From positions 1 through 12,202 of the IMG/VR virus record IMGVR_UViG_3300029840_000054: 12,202 nt of DNA; one strand, given 5' to 3'. Positions 1 to 12,202 of this stretch are shown piece by piece. The notes under the pieces were generated by a model. It did no database searches. It saw only the letters and a program-made list of their open reading frames with translations, and was not told the DNA's origin. Position 1 is the stretch's first letter, and each line of letters begins with the position of its first letter. A program made the position numbers and the translations under genes. The DNA comes from a virus. Its lineage: Duplodnaviria; Heunggongvirae; Uroviricota; Caudoviricetes.

Positions 1-1681
1 TTCCGGCACCGCCGACATAACCACCTTCCGCATAGCCCCGCATCAGGCGGTACAGATTGCCGACACCAATCCGGCTGGTCGCCTCCTTCGTGAAGACAAA
101 CTCCCCGCGATGAACAATCCCCGCAGGTTCATATTTACCCCCCGTCCCCGTAAATCCCCCGGTCGCGAAATGGAAGTTCGCCGCCGCAGCCTGAATGGCT
201 GTACCGCCTGACGCGGATGCGCCGCCACCAACAGCCCCGCCAATGGCGCTGCCGATACTCCCGACTATCCCCACCATCGCCTGCTTCAGAAAAATCTCTG
301 TCAGCATGGACAGCACAGAACGGGTGAAACCACGCCAGTTCTGTTCGCTGCCGGTCAGCATCGCTGCCATATTCTGTGCAATACCGTCAAAGGTCTGCGT
401 GGCCGCGTTTTTAACCTGCGAAAAACTGTCCGTCGCACTTTCCGCCCACTCGCCCCAGCCGGACTTCATCCCGGCCATCCAGCTTCCACGAAGCTGCTCC
501 TCCGCAGACCAGGTGTTCTTCAGTGCAGATGTGGCCTTCGCCAGCGCAACCGGATTATCACCGTACACCTCACGAAGGCGCTGCTCTTCCGACTCCCGCT
601 GCGCCTGACGGTCGGTGAGTCCGCGGGCTTTTGCGCTGATTGCCGCCTGCTTCGCGCTCTGCTGCTGTTCAAACCGCGCCGCCTGCTGTGCCAGCTCATT
701 CAGCCGTTTCTGGTGTTCAATCTTGTCGCCCAGCTCAGCCAGCTGGCGTTTGTACTCCAGCGTTTCTTTCTCATGGGCCAGCAGGGATTTTTCCTGCTCA
801 GATAACTGCCGTTTCGTGGCAGCCTCTTTCAGGACCGCATACTGACTTTCCGCCTTCCATAAATCACGGCGCTGCCGGCTGATTTTCTCATTCGCACCGC
901 TGTGTTTTTCCAGCGTCCTGAGCTCAGCTTCAAGGGCAAGCAGAGCCTCTCTTGCCTGCTCCTCTTCCCTCTCCCCGGCAGAGCGCGTTTTCGGTGATGT
1001 ATGCTTTTTACCTGTCAGCTCTTCAGCCAGACGGCTGACGGCTTCCTGCTGCCCAGGACCTTTGCTGACGCCTGTTGCACGCGAGCGGTTGATGTACCCC
1101 ATTTCCCCCTGGCGTATACGCGCATCCCGTTCCGCAATGGATTTTCTCAGCGCCAGTTCATCGCGTTTTGTTTTCTCAATAAATACGCGGTTCTCTTCTG
1201 CCAGTTCACCAAACAACGCACCAACGCCGGGCACATTCTTTGTCGTTTCCCAGGCTGACTGAATAAATTCAGCCAGCGCCAGATCCCCCTGCACAAGCAG
1301 CAGCTTCACCTGTTCAACGGTTCCGGCCACCACGTCAGTGATCAGACTGAGTGCCCCCAGTGTATGATCACCTATCCATGCCCATGCGTCAGAAGTCCAG
1401 GTTTTAACATCGTCCCAGATTTTTTCCACCGGCGTGGCCGCTTTATCAAGTTGCTCCAGACGTGCATTCATGACATCCGCAAACAGGGACATCGCCTCCG
1501 TCACCGCAGCCTGTTTACCTTTCGTGCGCTCAAGCTCATCAATATGGCGTAACTGGGAAACGCTCAGGAAGTTATACTGCTGATTCAGGGAGGCCAGCGC
1601 CTTCACCGGATCTGCTGCAATCCCTTCAAAGGCTTTTTCCACCTTCCCGGCATCGTCCCCCACCGTCTGCAGCCATCTCTG
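1..1681 (-). CDS. H: tail tape measure protein, C-proximal continuation (partial, runs off window at position 1; no start codon visible for this frame)
   Basis: Minus-strand translation is open from about 1681 to 1 and reads ...EALLALEAELRTLEKHSGANEKISRQRRDLWKAESQ...GTGGKYEPAGIVHRGEFVFTKEATSRIGVGNLYRLMRGY..., colinear with lambda gpH. Absent from the ORF track, presumably because it has no stop inside the window. Confidence 0.85.
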
Positions 1682-1691
1682 NNNNNNNNNN
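1682..1691. other. run of 10 ambiguous bases (N) at the tape-measure junction
   Basis: Literal n characters in the sequence. Confidence 1.
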
Positions 1692-1724
1692 TAAAGCCCT
1701 TGAACCTCTTCATAGCTCCTCCAA

Positions 1725-2459
1725 TTACTTTGACATTAGGATTTGTAGGTCTGCAGCGGTATATTTCCCGCTTTCTGCCAGACGGGCCAGATTTTCTGCC
1801 GCCTGTCTGATACCACCACCGGCTTCATCGCTGATCACCCCGGCCATTTTCCACAATTCTGCCGTTGTGGTGGCAGCCGCCCCTCCGGTCAGGATCAGTG
1901 AACGCAATAAGGCCCGGTCAGCCTGCTCTGCCTGCCAGGCGGCGGCAGCAAGCGCGGCCAGTACGGCAACCCCGCCACCTGCCGCCACACGGGCCACCGA
2001 CATAAATCGTCCCAGCTCACCGGCATTCCGGGCATTTTCAGCCAGTGCATTTGCCGTATCTGACAGCGACTCCTCTGATGATTCAGAGGCATCCCTGATC
2101 CCGAGAAGTTCCTCCTTCAGCAGGGTAAGCAGGCTGAGCGGTCCACCGAATGAATCGCTGATCTGCCCCCCCTGCTGCAGCATGATAAGGAAGGGATTCT
2201 GACCACCGGCAAGCTGAGTGACAATATCCGTGAACTGTGCGGGCAGTGTGCGCATGGCAGCCTTATACTGTCCGACTGATATCCCGGCTTTTTGTGCAGC
2301 CAGCGCCTGTCGGCTCAGCCCCTGTTCAACAGTACTGGCGGTTTTTCTGGCATCCGCCTCCAGACTGGAAAAATGACGGCGTACCCGGGCCATCTGTTCA
2401 TCAAACCGGGCCGCATCCAGACTCAAATCAATAACCAGATCACCCGCTGGCTGGGACAT
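1725..2459 (-). CDS. H: tail tape measure protein, N-terminal 244-aa fragment ending at an in-frame TAA
   Basis: Track ORF begins MSQPAGDLVIDLSLDAARFDEQMARVRRHFS...AGISVGQYKAAMRTLPAQFTD..., matching the lambda gpH N-terminus. SD-like GGAGGTG lies upstream of the ATG. Stop at 1725-1727. Confidence 0.85.
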   Translation of the reverse strand: MSQPAGDLVIDLSLDAARFDEQMARVRRHFSSLEADARKTASTVEQGLSRQALAAQKAGISVGQYKAAMRTLPAQFTDIVTQLAGGQNPFLIMLQQGGQISDSFGGPLSLLTLLKEELLGIRDASESSEESLSDTANALAENARNAGELGRFMSVARVAAGGGVAVLAALAAAAWQAEQADRALLRSLILTGGAAATTTAELWKMAGVISDEAGGGIRQAAENLARLAESGKYTAADLQILMSK

Positions 2460-2495: not shown

Positions 2496-2861
2496 TTAAT
2501 GCAACATCATCCTCGCTGACATCCACCACATCCGCAGAAGGTGAAATATCGCGCCCTCCGTCCCCTCCGAACCGGACGCCTCCGGCATCTCCGTCTGCTC
2601 TTCCTCACACGCTGGAGCAAGCAGACTGAAATCCGCCGGATGCATATCCGGATCGCCAAAAAACAGGCTGAGTACGGCGTACATCAGCCCGGAAAAATGA
2701 GCGTCCAGTTGGGTATCCTGAAAATAATGCGTGCAGTAAAAACGTCGCCAGTCGGCATATTCGGTGGATGTCATCCCGGCAAGCATGGCGCGCCAGTCGG
2801 GTCTCCCCATCTCTCGCGCCAGTTTCAGGACAAAGTTCAGCTCGCCTTCGAATGCTTTTTT
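2496..2861 (-). CDS. T: tail assembly chaperone, -1 frame portion of the G-T fusion (gpT part)
   Basis: Track ORF 2496..2810 (...TSTEYADWRRFYCTHYFQDTQLDAHFSGLMYAVLSLFFGDPDMHPADFSLL...) resembles lambda gpT and lies in the -1 frame relative to G. That frame is open back to the slippery heptamer at 2855-2861. Confidence 0.75.
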   Translation of the reverse strand, partial: KKAFEGELNFVLKLAREMGRPDWRAMLAGMTSTEYADWRRFYCTHYFQDTQLDAHFSGLMYAVLSLFFGDPDMHPADFSLLAPACEEEQTEMPEASGSEGTEGAIFHLLRMWWMSARMMLH

Positions 2862-3259
2862 GATGTTACCGGCTCAGTCGCTTCTGCTTTCCCGGTTTGT
2901 TCAGGATCGGCATCGTGCCGGTTATCCAGCATACCTGAAAGATAAAGCACCCGGTTCGTTGCCTGATTCAGTGCATCAGCAGGCCATCCCAGCATAACTT
3001 CACGGCGGATCTGCTGCATCTCTGTCTCCGGAGAGGCCAGAGTGCCTTTGAGGGAATGGGTATGCCATAGCGACATCGCCACAAGCAGGGATGCCGTTTC
3101 CAGATATCGCTGGTTAATGTGCACGACATCATGCTTCGTTGTCTCCTGTTGTTCTGCGTCTGAAACAAACTTTATATAATCAAACCGCTGCAGCGCAGAC
3201 AATTCGGAAAGCGTGACGGACACACCGTTATATTCAAATTGTTCTGTTTTCAGAAACAT
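2837..3259 (-). CDS. G: tail assembly chaperone gpG
   Basis: 140 aa, MFLKTEQFEYNGVSVTLSELSALQR..., same length as and colinear with lambda gpG. SD GGAGGT upstream. Confidence 0.9.
   Translation of the reverse strand: MFLKTEQFEYNGVSVTLSELSALQRFDYIKFVSDAEQQETTKHDVVHINQRYLETASLLVAMSLWHTHSLKGTLASPETEMQQIRREVMLGWPADALNQATNRVLYLSGMLDNRHDADPEQTGKAEATEPVTSKKHSKAS
2855..2861 (-). promoter_or_regulatory. candidate programmed -1 ribosomal frameshift heptamer A_AAA_AAG (G to G-T)
   Basis: In the G frame the codons are TCA AAA AAG (..TSKKHSKAS*). The preceding A gives the X_XXY_YYZ pattern, and the -1 frame from here runs without a stop into the T-like ORF. Confidence 0.6.
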
Positions 3260-4032: not shown

Positions 4033-4428
4033 TCACATCTCGTATGTAATGGAATAAGTCAGATCTGCAGAACTCCATAACGCCATATCGTCATCACGAC
4101 GATACTCATAGCCCTGCGTAACCATCGTGGTAATCAGTCCTGCCAGTGCCGGGATCTCGGTCATCGCCGGGTAAATCCGGCTTTCCATCCACTGATCAAG
4201 CTCTGAATCCGGTACCTGTGCCGGTAAAAACACCTCAATATGCAGCGTGGCCCGCCAGGTATCTGCATCCAGCTCTTCACCGGTATACTCTGCATCCGTC
4301 AGATAAACCGCGATCGCAGGAAAATCCTCTTCGTCAAAAACAACGGGGCGACCATCAAACAGCGTCGCCCCGTGTTCATGCTGCTCGAGTGCATCCAGCA
4401 CTGCGGCACGAATGTCAGTGTGTTTCAT
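4033..4428 (-). CDS. U: tail terminator protein gpU
   Basis: 131 aa, [28 protein letters not shown]...LTYSITYEM, colinear with lambda gpU (131 aa). Confidence 0.95.
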
Positions 4429-4958
4429 CGTTTTATTGCAATCCTCAGTTGTTGTTTCAGCGCGTATGCCAGTTCTTTAGGCAGGCGTTCACGCCGGATA
4501 CGGTCAACATTCTCATCAAATGCCTGTTTCAGTGGGGCCGCCATCGGGATTTTCACCACATCAATGGGGTAACGGTTTTTCCCGGCCACACGCTGCATGA
4601 CATGCCAGCGACCATTTTTTAATCGCTGAATAAATGCCCGCTGATACCGATGCTGACCGGCTTTAAGTATGCTGTTCGGGCGACGCCCCAGCATCCTGAT
4701 CCCCAGCTTANNNNNNNNNNNNNNNNCGCGGTTAACGATAATTCTGGCATTCGGATTTCTGACCGTCGCCCGTTTCAGTCTGGACCGTTCCTTTACCAGT
4801 TTCCGTCTCACCCTGGTTTCCCGGGCAACCTGTGACGAAGACTGATTAATCGCCGTTGTGGCCACGCGGTTAATGGTCATTGCAGAAGCAGCCGGAATGG
4901 CGTTTTTACGAACCCGGCTCAGATTGTCAATCGCCTGATCAAGCCCTTTTATCGCCAT
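4425..4958 (-). CDS. Z: tail completion protein gpZ (contains a 16-nt N run)
   Basis: MAIKGLDQAIDNLSRVRKNAIPAASAMTINRVA...NGRWHVMQRVAGKNRYPIDVVKIPMA... matches lambda gpZ. Start overlaps the U stop. Confidence 0.9.
   Translation of the reverse strand: MAIKGLDQAIDNLSRVRKNAIPAASAMTINRVATTAINQSSSQVARETRVRRKLVKERSRLKRATVRNPNARIIVNRXXXXXXKLGIRMLGRRPNSILKAGQHRYQRAFIQRLKNGRWHVMQRVAGKNRYPIDVVKIPMAAPLKQAFDENVDRIRRERLPKELAYALKQQLRIAIKR
4711..4726. other. run of 16 ambiguous bases (N) inside Z
   Basis: Literal n characters. The Z frame is preserved across the run (6 X codons). Confidence 1.
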
Positions 4959-5326: not shown

Positions 5327-5683
5327 AAACGGCCATTCCGCTCCTGACCATGTCTTTTGCCACTGAGGGGGGCATCAGAATTACTCTGCCAGCATCAACA
5401 TGCTCAACAGGCTCACCTGTTTCATCGTCAACACCGCACAGGTAAAAACACTTCAGAAGCCTGATACGTTCCAGAATACCAACGTCATCCTCACCGGTGT
5501 GCCTGCATGCCTGCTCATGAACGGTATCATCAACATCTGCGATTTCATTTTCCGAGGCGCAAACCTCCTCTTCCCACTCTGCCACACGCTGTGCGATATC
5601 CGCAGCACCGACATATCCGCCTCGCGCCCCAGCAGACCAGCCAGTTCACGAAGACGTTTCTGATTTTCTTCTTTTGTTGCCAT
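5319..5683 (-). pseudogene. FI: DNA-packaging/head assembly protein gpFI-like, split across two reading frames
   Basis: An SD-preceded ATG at 5681-5683 (AGGGAG, 6-nt spacer) starts MATKEENQKRLRELAGLLGREADMS, like the lambda FI N-terminus. The rest of the FI-like sequence (..IAQRVAEWEEE...EPVEHVDAGRVILMPPSVAKDMVRSGMAVYA) is in the other track ORF (5319..5585), a different frame. Confidence 0.6.
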
Positions 5684-8710: not shown

Positions 8711-10292
8711 GTGGTGTTGTCTCCTCTTCCGGCCTGCGACTCTCCGCTATCTGCTGCTGATACGCCTGCGCTATCCAAACCGGACGTGAGAGTCCGGCTT
8801 TTTCCCGCTCTGCAGATTCCCTGACCTGCTGGCGGAAAATGTCCTGATAATCCTCGCCCATCAGCGCCAGCTCTTTCTCATACGTGCTCAGTCCGGCCTC
8901 AATGCGCATCACTGATTCCTGAACCTCCTTGAGCCCGTCAATGGCCATTCTTCCGGCTCCAATCCACTCAGCCCGTGACCAGGCTGATCGCGCCTGATAA
9001 AAATCAAAACGTGCCCGTGGCGGACGAATAATCCCCCGAAGAAGTGCCTCTTCCAGCCAGCAGGAAAACATCTGCGTGGCCAGCCGGGACGCAATAAATT
9101 TTCGCCGCCCCATAAAATAGCGCCACGACTCATTGGCGGATGCGCGGGCACTTGAATAACTGACCTTCGAGTAATCACGGGACAACTGTTCGTAGGAAAC
9201 GCCAAGACCGGCGGCGATATACCGCAGCAGCGCCTGTTCAAGCGCCGAAAATCCATTGTCTGAATCCTGCGCGGTCTGAAGTTTCAGATCATCACCGGGG
9301 AAAAGGTGCGGAATTTTGACACCGCCCAGCGTCACGCTATTCGTGTCATACCAGGTGGAGAACTTATCCAGAATATTAATAAGCGGATTATCCTTCTGCC
9401 CCTGCGGCGCACCGGCGATATATTCAAAGGCCTTTTCGGTATCAAGTTCACTTTCAATCGTCGCTGCATACATCGCCTTCACTATGGCCGACTGAAGCTG
9501 TGTTGCCTGCAGGGAATCGAGCATCTTCAGCCGTTCCATGACGCTGTAAAACTGATTAGCCCCACGGGTCTGCCCGTCCTCCACCGGCTCGAAAATATGC
9601 AGCATGGCCGGACGTCCGGTGGGAAGTTCACGCGGGATCCGTTCCCATCGTCCACTACCAGAGAACGGAAAATCATCCTCACAAATATGGTACGCGACGG
9701 CACGGCCATATCGATCGACCTCCACACCGGCCCGCAGAAAACGGTTCCCCATACCGTGTCCAGGCGTGTCCACCCGTTTCGGACTCACGGCTTTAAAACG
9801 CGTACGGAATAACTGCGTGGTTTCCGTATCCCAGACCGGCTGCACAAAGATTTCGCCGTTAAACGCATGAACGCCCACACCTTCACGGATAAATTCCGTG
9901 AACGTGCGTTTTCCTTCCACGTCGATCTCGCCAAACATCCCTTCGGCGTATTCCGACCAGGCCGCCTCCACCTCATCGACAAAGCTTTTTGCTGCGGTCT
10001 CCCGCATCCCCAGCCAGCGCCAGTTCGGACGGTAGCTGATCAGAAACATATGCCCGACAATGTGATCCTTATGCAGAGCCACCGCATTAGCCGCTATTCC
10101 GTTATNNNNNNNNNNNNNNNNTGCCCGGGCATTCCCCAGACGCAACGCGGGTAACAGGGCCGCATCGGCACTCTGCGCCGGTGGCAACCACTCAGCCATT
10201 TGCCCGCCAAATCCTGCACCGCCCCCGTTGTAGCTGAGACTCTCACGAAGCGGAACGCCGTTCACATCAATCAGGACAGGCGTTCGTTTCAT
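8700..10292 (-). CDS. B: portal protein gpB (contains a 16-nt N run)
   Basis: 530 aa; ...LHIFEPVEDGQTRGANQFYSVMERLKMLDSLQATQLQSAIVKAMYAATIESELDT...LRYIAAGLGVSYEQLSRDYS...GRMAIDGLKEVQESVMRIEAGLSTYEKE is colinear with lambda gpB (533 aa). Confidence 0.95.
   Translation of the reverse strand: MKRTPVLIDVNGVPLRESLSYNGGGAGFGGQMAEWLPPAQSADAALLPALRLGNARAXXXXXXNGIAANAVALHKDHIVGHMFLISYRPNWRWLGMRETAAKSFVDEVEAAWSEYAEGMFGEIDVEGKRTFTEFIREGVGVHAFNGEIFVQPVWDTETTQLFRTRFKAVSPKRVDTPGHGMGNRFLRAGVEVDRYGRAVAYHICEDDFPFSGSGRWERIPRELPTGRPAMLHIFEPVEDGQTRGANQFYSVMERLKMLDSLQATQLQSAIVKAMYAATIESELDTEKAFEYIAGAPQGQKDNPLINILDKFSTWYDTNSVTLGGVKIPHLFPGDDLKLQTAQDSDNGFSALEQALLRYIAAGLGVSYEQLSRDYSKVSYSSARASANESWRYFMGRRKFIASRLATQMFSCWLEEALLRGIIRPPRARFDFYQARSAWSRAEWIGAGRMAIDGLKEVQESVMRIEAGLSTYEKELALMGEDYQDIFRQQVRESAEREKAGLSRPVWIAQAYQQQIAESRRPEEETTPRET
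10106..10121. other. run of 16 ambiguous bases (N) inside the portal gene
   Basis: Literal n characters. The B frame is preserved across the run (6 X codons). Confidence 1.
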
Positions 10293-10495
10293 AACCTCAC
10301 TCCCAGCGGACGACGGCGACGCCGGGTTGTCCCCAGTACCGACTCCGCATCATTGATCGCCCGGTTAAGCTCATCCAGAGAAGCCGCCGTATATTCAATT
10401 CTGCGACCATCTTTCTGGACAGACACCACCCGTTTACCGGTTAATAAATCAAGGCGCGCCTGACGCAGCGCCTGCAGTTCAGCGACTGTAACCAT
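10289..10495 (-). CDS. W: head-tail connector / head completion protein gpW
   Basis: 68 aa; ...A.LDLLTGKRVVSVQKDGRRIEYTAASLDELNRAI...RRRRP is colinear with lambda gpW (68 aa). Overlaps the B start and A stop as in lambda. Confidence 0.9.
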   Translation of the reverse strand: MVTVAELQALRQARLDLLTGKRVVSVQKDGRRIEYTAASLDELNRAINDAESVLGTTRRRRRPLGVRL

Positions 10496-12155
10496 TCACT
10501 CCTCCGGACAGCTTCGCTGCCAGTTCTTTAAGGGTTGGCCGGGTCGTCTCTTCTTCCCGGGATTTTGCCAGTACAGCCAGATCAAGCTGCCAGCGTTGCA
10601 CGGACACACGTAATGCCGCGTAGGCATACACCAGGCAGTCCAGCGCTTCGTTACGCCGCTTTTTGTTATCCCACAGCAGACGCATCTTTCCTTTTTCCCA
10701 CTTCTCCACAAGCTCTTCCGCGACCAGTTGCTGCGCCTCTGTCTGCGAAAAAATCTCCGGATCATCAGGAAAACGGATGGCATACGACGTGGCTTCATCC
10801 GCAGGCGTGGGATCGGCTTTCATACGGGCATAGAGAATTTCTTTTGCGGTGTCCGTCCCCACTTCGCACAGATACACGCCCCGCTGATTGCGGGTTTTTG
10901 GCATGGTGATCACCGGCTTGCCATAAACAGATGCACCTTTTACCGGCAGCACCCGGAAAACACCGTGTTTTTTTGACCTCTGATAGACAATTTCGCCATC
11001 GATCCCTCCGGTGTCCCAGCAGACACGGGAAATGGTCATTTCGGTTCCGTCTGCATGGCGGTATTTTTTGTTGATCGCCACATCCACACGTAACAGCGTC
11101 TCTTCCTCATCGGGACGCCCCATAATGATGATTTTATCCACCAGAAAGGCTTCCTCTCCCGGAGCCCATCCCCAGACATACATCTCAAAACGGTTTCGCT
11201 GCGAGTCAATGCCCGCCGTCAGATAAACCACCCGGGAAGGCACCGCAGCCGTGTAACGCACAACCTTATCCATCAGCACCTGGTGATCGAGTTTTTCGCC
11301 CACGGCCTCTTCCCAGGTCTCGCCCAGCGTGGTGTTCACAAAGGTTTTCAGGCCGTTGGGATCTTTCAGTGCATCCAGCCAGTCATAGACAATCTGTACC
11401 CAGGTGGTGAACGGACTGTACGCCGTCCAGATATGGAATGTGATGGAGCGCGGCGGCGGAATTTCATTACCCGCAGCGCTGAAAAACGTCAGGCCGTCAC
11501 GGGTCCACATGCCCGTGTTTTCACAGATCCACCGCCCGTTGCTCTGGTCAAGATCAGACTGATGGATCACGCAGCCATGATGTTCACAGAGGTAGAAAAC
11601 ACTTTCTGGACTGTCCTTCTCCCATTTAAGGCCAAAAGGCGTGGACTCATCGCCAAATTTCAGATACTGCGCCTCCCCACAGTGTGGGCAGGGCACATAA
11701 AAACGCATGAAATGCGCCGACTCGTTGGCCGCTTTTTCGATCTGGCAGGAGCCTTTTATTTTAGGCGTCGAGCCGCGAATGGATTTTGGCCATACCGAGC
11801 CCTCAATACGCTTATCCCCCAGCAGGGTTGGCGAGCCCTCTTTTTCGACATCCGGCTCGAACGAGGAAAGTTCGTCATAGCAGACCACGTCCACGGATTT
11901 TTCACGGTAGTTTTTGGCGGCAGCACCACCCAGGCACCAGAACCCCACACGGGACGTGAATCTTTTTAATGTCAGTGTGTTATCCCGGTGCTTACGCCCC
12001 AGCCAGGGGGAAAGAATTTTCAGACAGGGAACATCCCGTAATGTTGACTCCACATGAGACTTCATAAAATCTTCAGCGGCAGAATCCGTAGGCTGAAACA
12101 GAAGACTGTTACGGTTTTTATGCTCAATAAAGTAACCAATAAGTAACCGGCTCAT
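10479..12155 (-). CDS. A: terminase large subunit (gpA-like); ORF corresponds to lambda gpA from about residue 85 onward, with an in-frame stop immediately upstream of the ATG
   Basis: 558 aa; ...YFIEHKNRNSLLFQPTDSAAEDFMKSHVE...WCLGGAAAKNYREKSVDVVCYDELSSF...IWTAYSPFTTWVQIV...NTTLGETWE...TAGIDSQ...GTDTAKE...KKRRNEALDC... is colinear with lambda gpA (641 aa). Confidence 0.9.
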   Translation of the reverse strand: MSRLLIGYFIEHKNRNSLLFQPTDSAAEDFMKSHVESTLRDVPCLKILSPWLGRKHRDNTLTLKRFTSRVGFWCLGGAAAKNYREKSVDVVCYDELSSFEPDVEKEGSPTLLGDKRIEGSVWPKSIRGSTPKIKGSCQIEKAANESAHFMRFYVPCPHCGEAQYLKFGDESTPFGLKWEKDSPESVFYLCEHHGCVIHQSDLDQSNGRWICENTGMWTRDGLTFFSAAGNEIPPPRSITFHIWTAYSPFTTWVQIVYDWLDALKDPNGLKTFVNTTLGETWEEAVGEKLDHQVLMDKVVRYTAAVPSRVVYLTAGIDSQRNRFEMYVWGWAPGEEAFLVDKIIIMGRPDEEETLLRVDVAINKKYRHADGTEMTISRVCWDTGGIDGEIVYQRSKKHGVFRVLPVKGASVYGKPVITMPKTRNQRGVYLCEVGTDTAKEILYARMKADPTPADEATSYAIRFPDDPEIFSQTEAQQLVAEELVEKWEKGKMRLLWDNKKRRNEALDCLVYAYAALRVSVQRWQLDLAVLAKSREEETTRPTLKELAAKLSGGVNGYSR

Positions 12156-12202
12156 TTAAACCGTCTGGTCTGTTTCCTCCGGCTCTACAAAAATAATGTC
12201 CA

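What the first reader, a model, noticed from the sequence alone, without database searches (positions are those of the whole stretch)
1661..1760. Tape measure gene H is interrupted: premature TAA, then SD plus ATG, then the rest of H in another frame
The N-terminal H ORF (244 aa) ends at TAA 1725-1727. Immediately downstream on the mRNA strand is TAA-TT-GGAGGAG-CT-ATG (ATG about 1711-1713, MKRFKGF...) running into the 10-nt N run. Unmistakable tape-measure coding sequence then continues to position 1 in a frame that, by my reading, differs from both (about +1 relative to the N-terminal ORF) and has no start codon before the N run. Possible explanations: H is a pseudogene, there is an indel or assembly error around the N run, or the gene is expressed as two pieces or by recoding. 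The tape measure sets tail length and is essential for tail assembly.
Basis: partly seen in the sequence, partly recalled or inferred. Interest (0 to 1): 0.55.

Follow-up and report, generated by a model that had tools for sequence, protein, structure and literature searches.

The report
Assembly chimera inside tape-measure gene
The apparent break in this prophage's tape-measure gene is an assembly artefact: 64 bases from an unrelated gut Firmicute were joined on at a 21-base word the two genomes share by chance, a 10-N scaffold gap follows, and the same prophage in another assembly has the gene intact.

Summary
A 244-aa N-terminal H ORF ends at TAA 1725-1727, followed by GGAGGAG, ATG 1711-1713 (MKRFKGF), 10 N (1682-1691), and the rest of H in the +1 frame.

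The stop, the Shine-Dalgarno and the ATG are not phage sequence. Window 1692-1755 is a 100% copy of an intergenic region plus the first 8 codons of a DUF3592-like membrane-protein gene of Brotocaccenecus-like Oscillospiraceae (Clostridia). It is attached to H exactly at AGAAAGCGGGAAATATACCGC (1756-1776). That is the only word of 18 nt or more shared between the phage locus and the Firmicute loci.

The 64 foreign bases plus 10 N replace 31 bases of H. Putting them back gives one open 805-aa frame to the window edge, 801/805 identical to an intact E. coli O104:H4 tape measure.

A human-gut metagenome scaffold of the same prophage has the same IS66-truncated terminase and no SNPs against the window. 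There H is continuous (870 aa), with no N and no foreign DNA.

The junction is absent from 5,426 complete E. coli genomes, 50,697 phage records, IMG/VR and the metagenome contigs.

Verdict: a chimeric contig end plus a scaffold gap, not a pseudogene, split gene or recoding site. Low interest.

The parts
1756..2459 (-). Authentic 5' part of tape-measure gene H (start ATG 2457-2459), up to and including the 21-nt shared word
   Evidence: 100% identical to intact H genes of E. coli O26 11368 (L001) and O104:H4 (L003) and to metagenome scaffold L021. Pfam PF06791 TMP_2, E=4e-34.
1756..1776 (-). Crossover word AGAAAGCGGGAAATATACCGC (21 nt), present exactly in both the phage H gene and Brotocaccenecus-like Firmicute genomes
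   Evidence: It is the only word of 18 nt or more shared between the intact 15-kb phage locus and the Firmicute loci. No 22-mer is shared. The base 5' of it is phage-specific (C, not A) and the base 3' is Firmicute-specific (T, not C).
1692..1755 (-). 64 nt of Firmicute (Oscillospiraceae) DNA: intergenic region plus the first 8 codons of a 299-aa DUF3592-like membrane-protein gene. It holds the 'premature' TAA (1725-1727), the GGAGGAG (1716-1722) and the ATG (1711-1713).
   Evidence: An exact 30-mer hit in B. cirricatena NZ_JAJEPW010000008.1 (sequence). The 21-mer plus these 64 nt match 85/85 in 7 human-gut metagenome contigs: L006, L012, L013, L015-L018. GC is 41% against 58.5% in the flanks. 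There is no hit in E. coli genomes, phages or plasmids.
1682..1691 (.). 10-N scaffold gap (placeholder), joining the chimeric contig end to the next contig
   Evidence: The phage sequence resumes at 1681, 31 nt downstream of the break in every reference.
1..1681 (-). Authentic remainder of H (560 codons, running off the window edge)
   Evidence: 100% identical to L021 over the 1,186 nt that locus covers, and 99.6% to O104:H4 over the full 1,681 nt. Pfam PF06791 resumes at profile position 162 of 208, and PF09718 Tape_meas_lam_C scores E=2e-21.

Best explanation
The interruption is an artefact of short-read assembly and scaffolding, most likely of a low-coverage human-gut metagenome. The phage H gene and a co-occurring Brotocaccenecus-like Oscillospiraceae genome share one exact 21-nt word by chance. 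At that word the contig path left the phage and ran 64 nt into the Firmicute genome, and there the contig ended. A scaffolder then linked this contig to the next phage contig, which begins 31 nt further along H, and wrote a 10-N placeholder between them. The stop codon, the ribosome-binding site and the ATG are therefore Firmicute features (an intergenic region and the true start of a DUF3592-like membrane-protein gene). The +1 frame shift follows from 64 + 10 - 31 = +43. The real prophage almost certainly has a continuous tape-measure gene of about 870 aa. Shown here: the foreign origin, the position of the crossover, the restoration of the ORF, and an intact H in the same lineage. Inferred: that the mis-join arose in a k=21 de Bruijn graph, and that the N run is a placeholder.
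For: (1) The window is 100% identical to intact H genes on both sides. 64 nt + 10 N replace 31 reference nt. (2) The 64 nt are an exact copy of Oscillospiraceae chromosomal DNA, found in the B. cirricatena genome and in 15 human-gut metagenome contigs with purely Firmicute context; 7 of these match 85/85 including the overlap word. (3) The crossover is confined to a 21-nt exact word, the only shared word of 18 nt or more, and no 22-mer is shared. About 7 such words are expected by chance between any two bacterial genomes under a uniform model. From memory, 21 is the smallest k of the common metagenome assemblers. (4) Restoring the 31 nt gives an open 805-aa frame, 801/805 identical to O104:H4 H. 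(5) The same prophage lineage is marked by an identical IS66-truncated terminase ORF and has zero SNPs over 11.7 kb. In scaffold L021 it carries a continuous 870-aa H with no N and no foreign DNA. Sister contigs have coverage of about 4x and break at the same sites as the window's other N runs. (6) The junction is absent from 5,426 complete E. coli genomes, 50,697 phage records, 72,556 plasmids and IMG/VR. The chimeric 244-aa product is not on record among 153 billion gene positions. (7) The break lies inside the TMP_2 domain, not at a domain boundary. (8) The mechanism is well documented: shared k-mers link the graphs of different genomes and give chimeric contigs, especially at low abundance (PMC7299287).
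Against: The source assembly of the window was not found, so neither the assembler, its k, nor read support could be checked. At the larger k values used late in multi-k assemblies a 21-nt overlap should normally be resolved, so the mis-join needs low local coverage (plausible at about 4x). The window also carries two other private lesions not explained by this mechanism (-43 nt in T, -4 nt in FI). Beyond the 21-mer the next 31 nt are 15/31 identical between the Firmicute and phage sequences, which is a little more than chance.
Confidence: 0.93

Rival explanations
1. A wet-lab chimera rather than a graph mis-join. A chimeric DNA molecule or read, made by template switching during library PCR or whole-genome amplification and primed by the 21-nt microhomology, was incorporated at a low-coverage contig end. 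This is still an artefact, so the biological conclusion is the same.
For: The crossover sits exactly within a 21-nt microhomology, which also favours template switching. Coverage of this prophage in sister assemblies is only about 4x, so a single read could set the contig end. The private 43-nt loss in T lies between 7-nt direct repeats and also looks like a slippage product.
Against: Nothing separates it from the in-silico mis-join without reads. 21 nt matching a standard smallest k (from memory) is a neater fit to the graph explanation.
Confidence: 0.12
2. A real insertion. Oscillospiraceae chromosomal DNA was captured in the E. coli prophage H gene by illegitimate recombination at the 21-nt microhomology, with a 31-nt deletion. 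The rest of the insert and its right junction are hidden in the N gap, and H is a true pseudogene.
For: The 10 N could stand for a gap of unknown length. This prophage is already defective, with terL truncated by an IS66-family element, so further decay would be tolerated. The window has other private lesions.
Against: The donor stretch is an ordinary chromosomal region with no mobile element: DUF3592-like membrane proteins, with ORFs read by eye (not searched) as ribulose-phosphate epimerase and RecR nearby. The donor is an obligate-anaerobe Firmicute, 100% identical to free-living gut strains. There is no foreign sequence on the right side of the gap. The same lineage with zero SNPs has an intact H. 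The junction is absent from every collection searched.
Confidence: 0.03
3. H is genuinely expressed in two pieces or by recoding: a stop, then reinitiation at the SD + ATG, or a +1 frameshift into the downstream frame.
For: A strong GGAGGAG-N2-ATG follows the stop. Lambdoid tail operons do use recoding nearby: the G/GT -1 slippery heptamer GGGAAAG is present at 2887-2893.
Against: The ATG opens a Firmicute ORF (MKRFKGFNPMLF...), not tape-measure sequence. The downstream H frame has no link to it. All homologues have one continuous ORF through this point. The break cuts the TMP_2 domain.
Confidence: 0.01

Closest known systems
Inter-genome chimeric contigs in de Bruijn graph metagenome assemblies (reviewed in PMC7299287)
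   Same: Sequence from two unrelated genomes of one habitat is joined at an exact shared k-mer, at a contig end next to a scaffold gap, in a low-coverage genome. The join is not reproduced in other assemblies.
   Different: Nothing substantive. The assembler and k were not identified, and the chimeric tail is very short (64 nt).
Lambda gpH-type tail tape-measure protein (Pfam PF06791 TMP_2 + PF09718 Tape_meas_lam_C)
   Same: Both fragments match these families. The gene sits after V, G and T as in lambda. Once the 31 nt are restored, the 805 aa that lie within the window are 99.5% identical to intact E. coli prophage tape measures.
   Different: As written in the window the ORF is broken. This is a property of the assembly, not of the gene.
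Prophage genes inactivated by insertion sequences (here the IS66-family insertion in terL of this same prophage)
   Same: Foreign DNA abuts a truncated phage gene.
   Different: The terL insertion ends in an IS terminus and recurs in 4 independent contigs. The H 'insertion' is non-mobile Firmicute chromosomal DNA, has no repeats or duplication, and is seen nowhere else.
Programmed recoding in lambdoid tail operons (G/GT -1 frameshift)
   Same: A change of frame within a tail-assembly gene cluster.
   Different: G/GT uses a conserved slippery heptamer (present here at 2887-2893). The H frame change has no conserved signal and no counterpart in homologues, and comes from arbitrary inserted lengths.

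Membership tests
Inter-genome assembly chimera | The foreign segment is identical to the genome of another organism from the same kind of sample | tested here: met
   85/85 identity (21-mer + 64 nt) to 7 human-gut metagenome contigs of Brotocaccenecus-like Oscillospiraceae, and 83/85 to the B. cirricatena genome.
Inter-genome assembly chimera | The junction lies within an exact word shared by both genomes, of a length compatible with an assembler k | tested here: met
   A 21-nt exact word at 1756-1776, the only shared word of 18 nt or more, with diagnostic bases on each side. That 21 is a common smallest k is from memory.
Inter-genome assembly chimera | Located at a contig end or scaffold gap | tested here: met
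   The foreign stretch runs straight into the 10-N run at 1682-1691.
Inter-genome assembly chimera | Not reproduced in independent assemblies of the same element | tested here: met
   L021 (same IS-terL marker, 0 SNPs) is continuous through the site. There are no junctions in the E. coli, phage, viral or metagenome collections, and the chimeric protein is not on record.
Inter-genome assembly chimera | No read or read-pair support across the junction | not testable with these tools
   Raw reads and the source assembly are not available here.
Lambda-type tape-measure protein gpH | TMP_2 and Tape_meas_lam_C domains | tested here: met
   PF06791 E=4e-34 in the N fragment, continuing at profile positions 162-208 in the C fragment. 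PF09718 E=2e-21.
Lambda-type tape-measure protein gpH | A single continuous ORF of about 850-870 aa downstream of G/T | tested here: inconclusive
   Broken in the window as written. Continuous once the 31 reference nt are restored. Continuous at 870 aa in the same lineage, L021.
Gene disrupted by a mobile element (IS, intron or homing-endonuclease insertion) | The inserted DNA carries element termini, repeats or a mobility gene, with a target-site duplication | tested here: not met
   The insert is an intergenic region plus the start of a membrane-protein gene, in a non-mobile chromosomal context. 31 nt of target are lost and nothing is duplicated.
Programmed recoding or translational coupling | The signal is conserved in homologous genes | tested here: not met
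   641 E. coli records and 21 phage records match both flanks, and all of those listed by the tool are continuous through the site and lack the stop, SD and ATG.

The most novel reading that the evidence does not exclude
The junction is physically real: a piece of Oscillospiraceae (Clostridia) chromosome was captured inside an E. coli prophage tape-measure gene by microhomology-mediated illegitimate recombination, a very recent cross-phylum DNA transfer caught in a gut sample, with the rest of the insert hidden in the N gap.
Probability: 0.02. Interest if true: 0.5.

Novelty: not a real feature. Interest (0 to 1): 0.04.

Why it matters
It matters only for data quality. Taken at face value, this junction would produce a false tape-measure pseudogene call, a false 'defective tail' prediction for the prophage, a spurious 244-aa protein ending in ...AADLQILMSK, and possibly a false Firmicute-to-E. 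coli gene-transfer signal. It also gives a simple screen: for any stop or start signal that abuts an N run, search the few dozen bases next to the gap against other genomes before interpreting it. The prophage is probably defective anyway, but for a different and reproducible reason, an IS66-family insertion in the large terminase gene.

Tried and rejected
(1) I searched the 64 foreign bases against complete E. coli genomes, the phage and plasmid collections and IMG/VR, with no matches. That excluded an E. coli IS, a phage moron or a plasmid cassette.

(2) I considered a divergent tape-measure allele joined by recombination, because the foreign stretch reads AADLQIL where H has AGQLRIM and is 15/31 identical at the DNA level. 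I rejected this because the stretch is an exact copy of a non-coding Firmicute intergenic region.

(3) I considered an engineered scar or cloning junction, because a PstI site CTGCAG is created at the join. I rejected this for the same reason.

(4) I considered that the contig broke where prophage H alleles diverge. I rejected this because the flanks are identical to O26 H for at least 400 nt on both sides.

(5) Exact-product look-ups with the chimeric 244-aa ORF and the truncated 104-aa T found nothing, so the source assembly was not identified. The IS-truncated terL ORF did work as a lineage marker.

(6) I checked whether the other N runs also carry foreign flanks. They do not, and each replaces exactly 16 reference bases.

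(7) A scan of IMG/VR for the T-deletion junction found nothing.

Full report
**Observation**

The window carries, on the minus strand, a lambdoid E. coli prophage morphogenesis module running from terminase to tape measure.

- The ORF at 1725-2459 (244 aa) starts at the same ATG as RefSeq-annotated tape-measure genes and ends at TAA 1725-1727.
- GGAGGAG (1716-1722) and ATG (1711-1713, MKRFKGF) follow, and then exactly 10 N (1682-1691).
- From 1681 to position 1, tape-measure sequence continues in the +1 frame.

**What is actually at the break**

The window is 100% identical to intact H genes on both sides of the break. This holds for E. coli O26:H11 11368, phage VT1-Sakai and O104:H4, and 639 of 5,426 complete E. 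coli genomes match this stretch of H.

Identity stops after ...GGGAAATATACCGC at 1756 and resumes at CAGAGATGG at 1681. Between those points the references have 31 nt (CGGGCAGCTACGGATCATGGGGGAAACCTCT). The window instead has 64 other bases plus 10 N. The net change is +43 nt, which produces the +1 frame.

The 64 bases are 41% GC against 58.5% in the flanks. They match nothing in complete E. coli genomes, phage records, plasmids or IMG/VR.

**Origin of the 64 bases**

- A 30-mer from the segment has one exact match among 185,579 species-representative genomes. It is in Brotocaccenecus cirricatena, Oscillospiraceae, Clostridia.
- There the sequence is the spacer between two genes for DUF3592-like membrane proteins, plus the first codons of the second gene (MKRFKGFNPMLF..., 299 aa). 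I read the neighbouring ORFs by eye as ribulose-phosphate epimerase and RecR but did not search them.
- The 'premature TAA' is therefore non-coding Firmicute spacer.
- The GGAGGAG-ATG is the genuine start of a Firmicute gene.

**The junction**

A 31-mer spanning the junction was found in 15 human-gut metagenome contigs. All 15 have purely Firmicute context. In those strains the spacer reads AGAAAGCGGGAAATATACCGC, which is also the exact sequence of H at 1756-1776.

Seven of these contigs match the window 85/85 over this word plus the 64 nt. The word is the only stretch of 18 nt or more shared between the intact 15-kb phage locus and the Firmicute loci, and no 22-mer is shared.

The base 5' of the word is the phage's and the base 3' is the Firmicute's, so the crossover lies within these 21 nt. 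Under a uniform model, about 7 shared 21-mers are expected between any two bacterial genomes, so such a word is unremarkable.

**The gene is intact in the same prophage elsewhere**

Replacing 1682-1755 with the 31 reference bases gives a single open frame of 805 codons to the window edge. It is 801/805 identical to the O104:H4 tape measure.

The window's large-terminase gene is truncated by the terminus of an IS66-family (ISCro1-like) element at 12143-12202. I used the resulting 558-aa ORF as a lineage marker and found four human-gut metagenome contigs that carry it. They show no SNPs against the window.

The one that reaches the tail genes is L021 (ERZ28659820, XIEH16-1_SAMEA3449319_METAG-scaffold_2857). 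It has T at 137 aa and H at 870 aa (TMP_2 + Tape_meas_lam_C). Its sequence runs continuously through the site, with no N and no foreign DNA.

A sister contig is reported at about 4x coverage. It ends at exactly the base where L021 places a 10-N gap, within a base of the start of one of the window's other N runs. This points to a thinly covered genome.

The chimeric 244-aa product is not on record anywhere. The break falls inside the TMP_2 domain, not at a domain boundary.

**Mechanism**

The best explanation is a chimeric contig end plus a scaffold gap.

1. At the shared 21-mer the assembly path switched from the low-coverage phage to the Firmicute genome.
2. It ran 64 nt into the Firmicute genome and the contig ended.
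3. A scaffolder linked this contig to the next phage contig, which starts 31 nt downstream in H. No overlap could be found, because the contig end was foreign, so it wrote 10 N.

From memory, 21 is the smallest k in the default series of metaSPAdes and MEGAHIT, and SPAdes writes a 10-N 'artificial gap' in this situation. I could not verify which assembler was used. The general mechanism is described in PMC7299287: k-mers shared between genomes link their graphs and give chimeric contigs, especially for low-abundance genomes.

A chimeric library molecule formed by template switching at the same microhomology would look identical and leads to the same conclusion.

**Rivals**

- **Real capture of Firmicute DNA in the prophage.** The sequence alone cannot formally exclude this, because the gap could hide the other junction. 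The evidence against it:
  - The donor region is not mobile.
  - Nothing foreign sits on the right side of the gap.
  - The zero-SNP sister scaffold is intact.
  - The junction is absent from every collection searched.
- **Two-piece expression or recoding.** This is excluded because the stop, SD and ATG are foreign and the ATG opens a Firmicute ORF.

**Comparison with known things and novelty**

The gene is an ordinary lambda-gpH-type tape measure. The 'interruption' belongs to the known class of inter-genome assembly chimeras. It is not a real biological feature. Its only value is as a quality-control example.

**Open points**

Compared with L021, the window has two further private differences that this mechanism does not explain:

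- A 43-nt loss in T between 7-nt direct repeats (about 2588), which truncates T to 104 aa.
- A 4-nt loss in FI (about 5609), which frameshifts FI.

Neither occurs in any complete E. coli genome checked (for the T deletion). They may be further errors of the same low-coverage assembly or real decay of an already terminase-defective prophage. I could not decide between these.

The -43 in T and the +43 in H cancel exactly. I regard this as coincidence, because the +43 depends on an arbitrary N count.

All three N-associated sites overlie a GATC (TGATCY) motif, which is unexplained.

Noticed in passing
window 12143-12202 (minus strand start of the window): These 60 nt are 100% identical to the terminus of an IS66-family (ISCro1-like) element. 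They abut a 5'-truncated large-terminase gene, and the 558-aa ORF 10479-12155 starts inside the IS end. The same junction product is found in 4 human-gut metagenome contigs, so unlike the H break this lesion is reproducible. The prophage is probably packaging-defective.
   Followed up: yes
window about 2588/2589 (gene T, ORF 2496-2810, minus strand): 43 nt (TGCCGGACGAGGAAGAAATGCTGATGCAGAAAGCGACAGGAGT) are missing relative to every reference and to the zero-SNP sister scaffold L021. The loss is flanked by the 7-nt direct repeat TGCCGGA and frameshifts T (104 aa instead of 137). It is absent from 5,426 complete E. coli genomes, the phage records and IMG/VR. Whether it is a real deletion or an assembly/library error is not resolved.
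   Followed up: partly
window about 5609 (gene FI, start at 5683, minus strand): A 4-nt loss (GGGA; ...ATGTCGG|TGCTGC against ...ATGTCGGGGAGTGCTGC in L021, L022 and L023) frameshifts the DNA-packaging protein FI after codon 25. It is private to the window.
   Followed up: partly
window 4711-4726 and 10106-10121: Two 16-N runs each replace exactly 16 reference bases, with no foreign flanks. L021 has 10-N gaps at the same two places, and contig L022 ends at the same base as one of them. This suggests shared coverage dropouts, and the contigs may derive from the same or a related sample.
   Followed up: partly
window 1682-1755, 4711-4726, 10106-10121: The bases missing at all three N-associated sites contain a GATC (TGATCT, TGATCT, and TGATCC on the other strand). 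With 60 GATC sites in 11.7 kb, the chance of all three is roughly 6e-4 (a post hoc estimate). This may be a library or trimming bias, but it is unexplained.
   Followed up: no
window about 2588 and 1682-1755: The T deletion (-43 nt) and the net gain at the H junction (+43 nt) cancel exactly, about 830 nt apart. This is probably coincidence, since the +43 depends on the arbitrary 10-N count, but it is noted.
   Followed up: no
window 2887-2893 (minus strand, end of gene G): The lambda-type slippery heptamer GGGAAAG is present near the end of G, where the programmed -1 frameshift that makes the G-T fusion is expected. The private 43-nt loss in T would alter the C-terminus of that fusion.
   Followed up: no
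window 4568-4590 (tail protein ORF 4425-4958): This gene is 42 nt (14 codons, in frame) shorter than the O104:H4 allele. It matches the 534-nt length of the corresponding gene annotated in O26 11368, so it is ordinary allelic mosaicism.
   Followed up: partly
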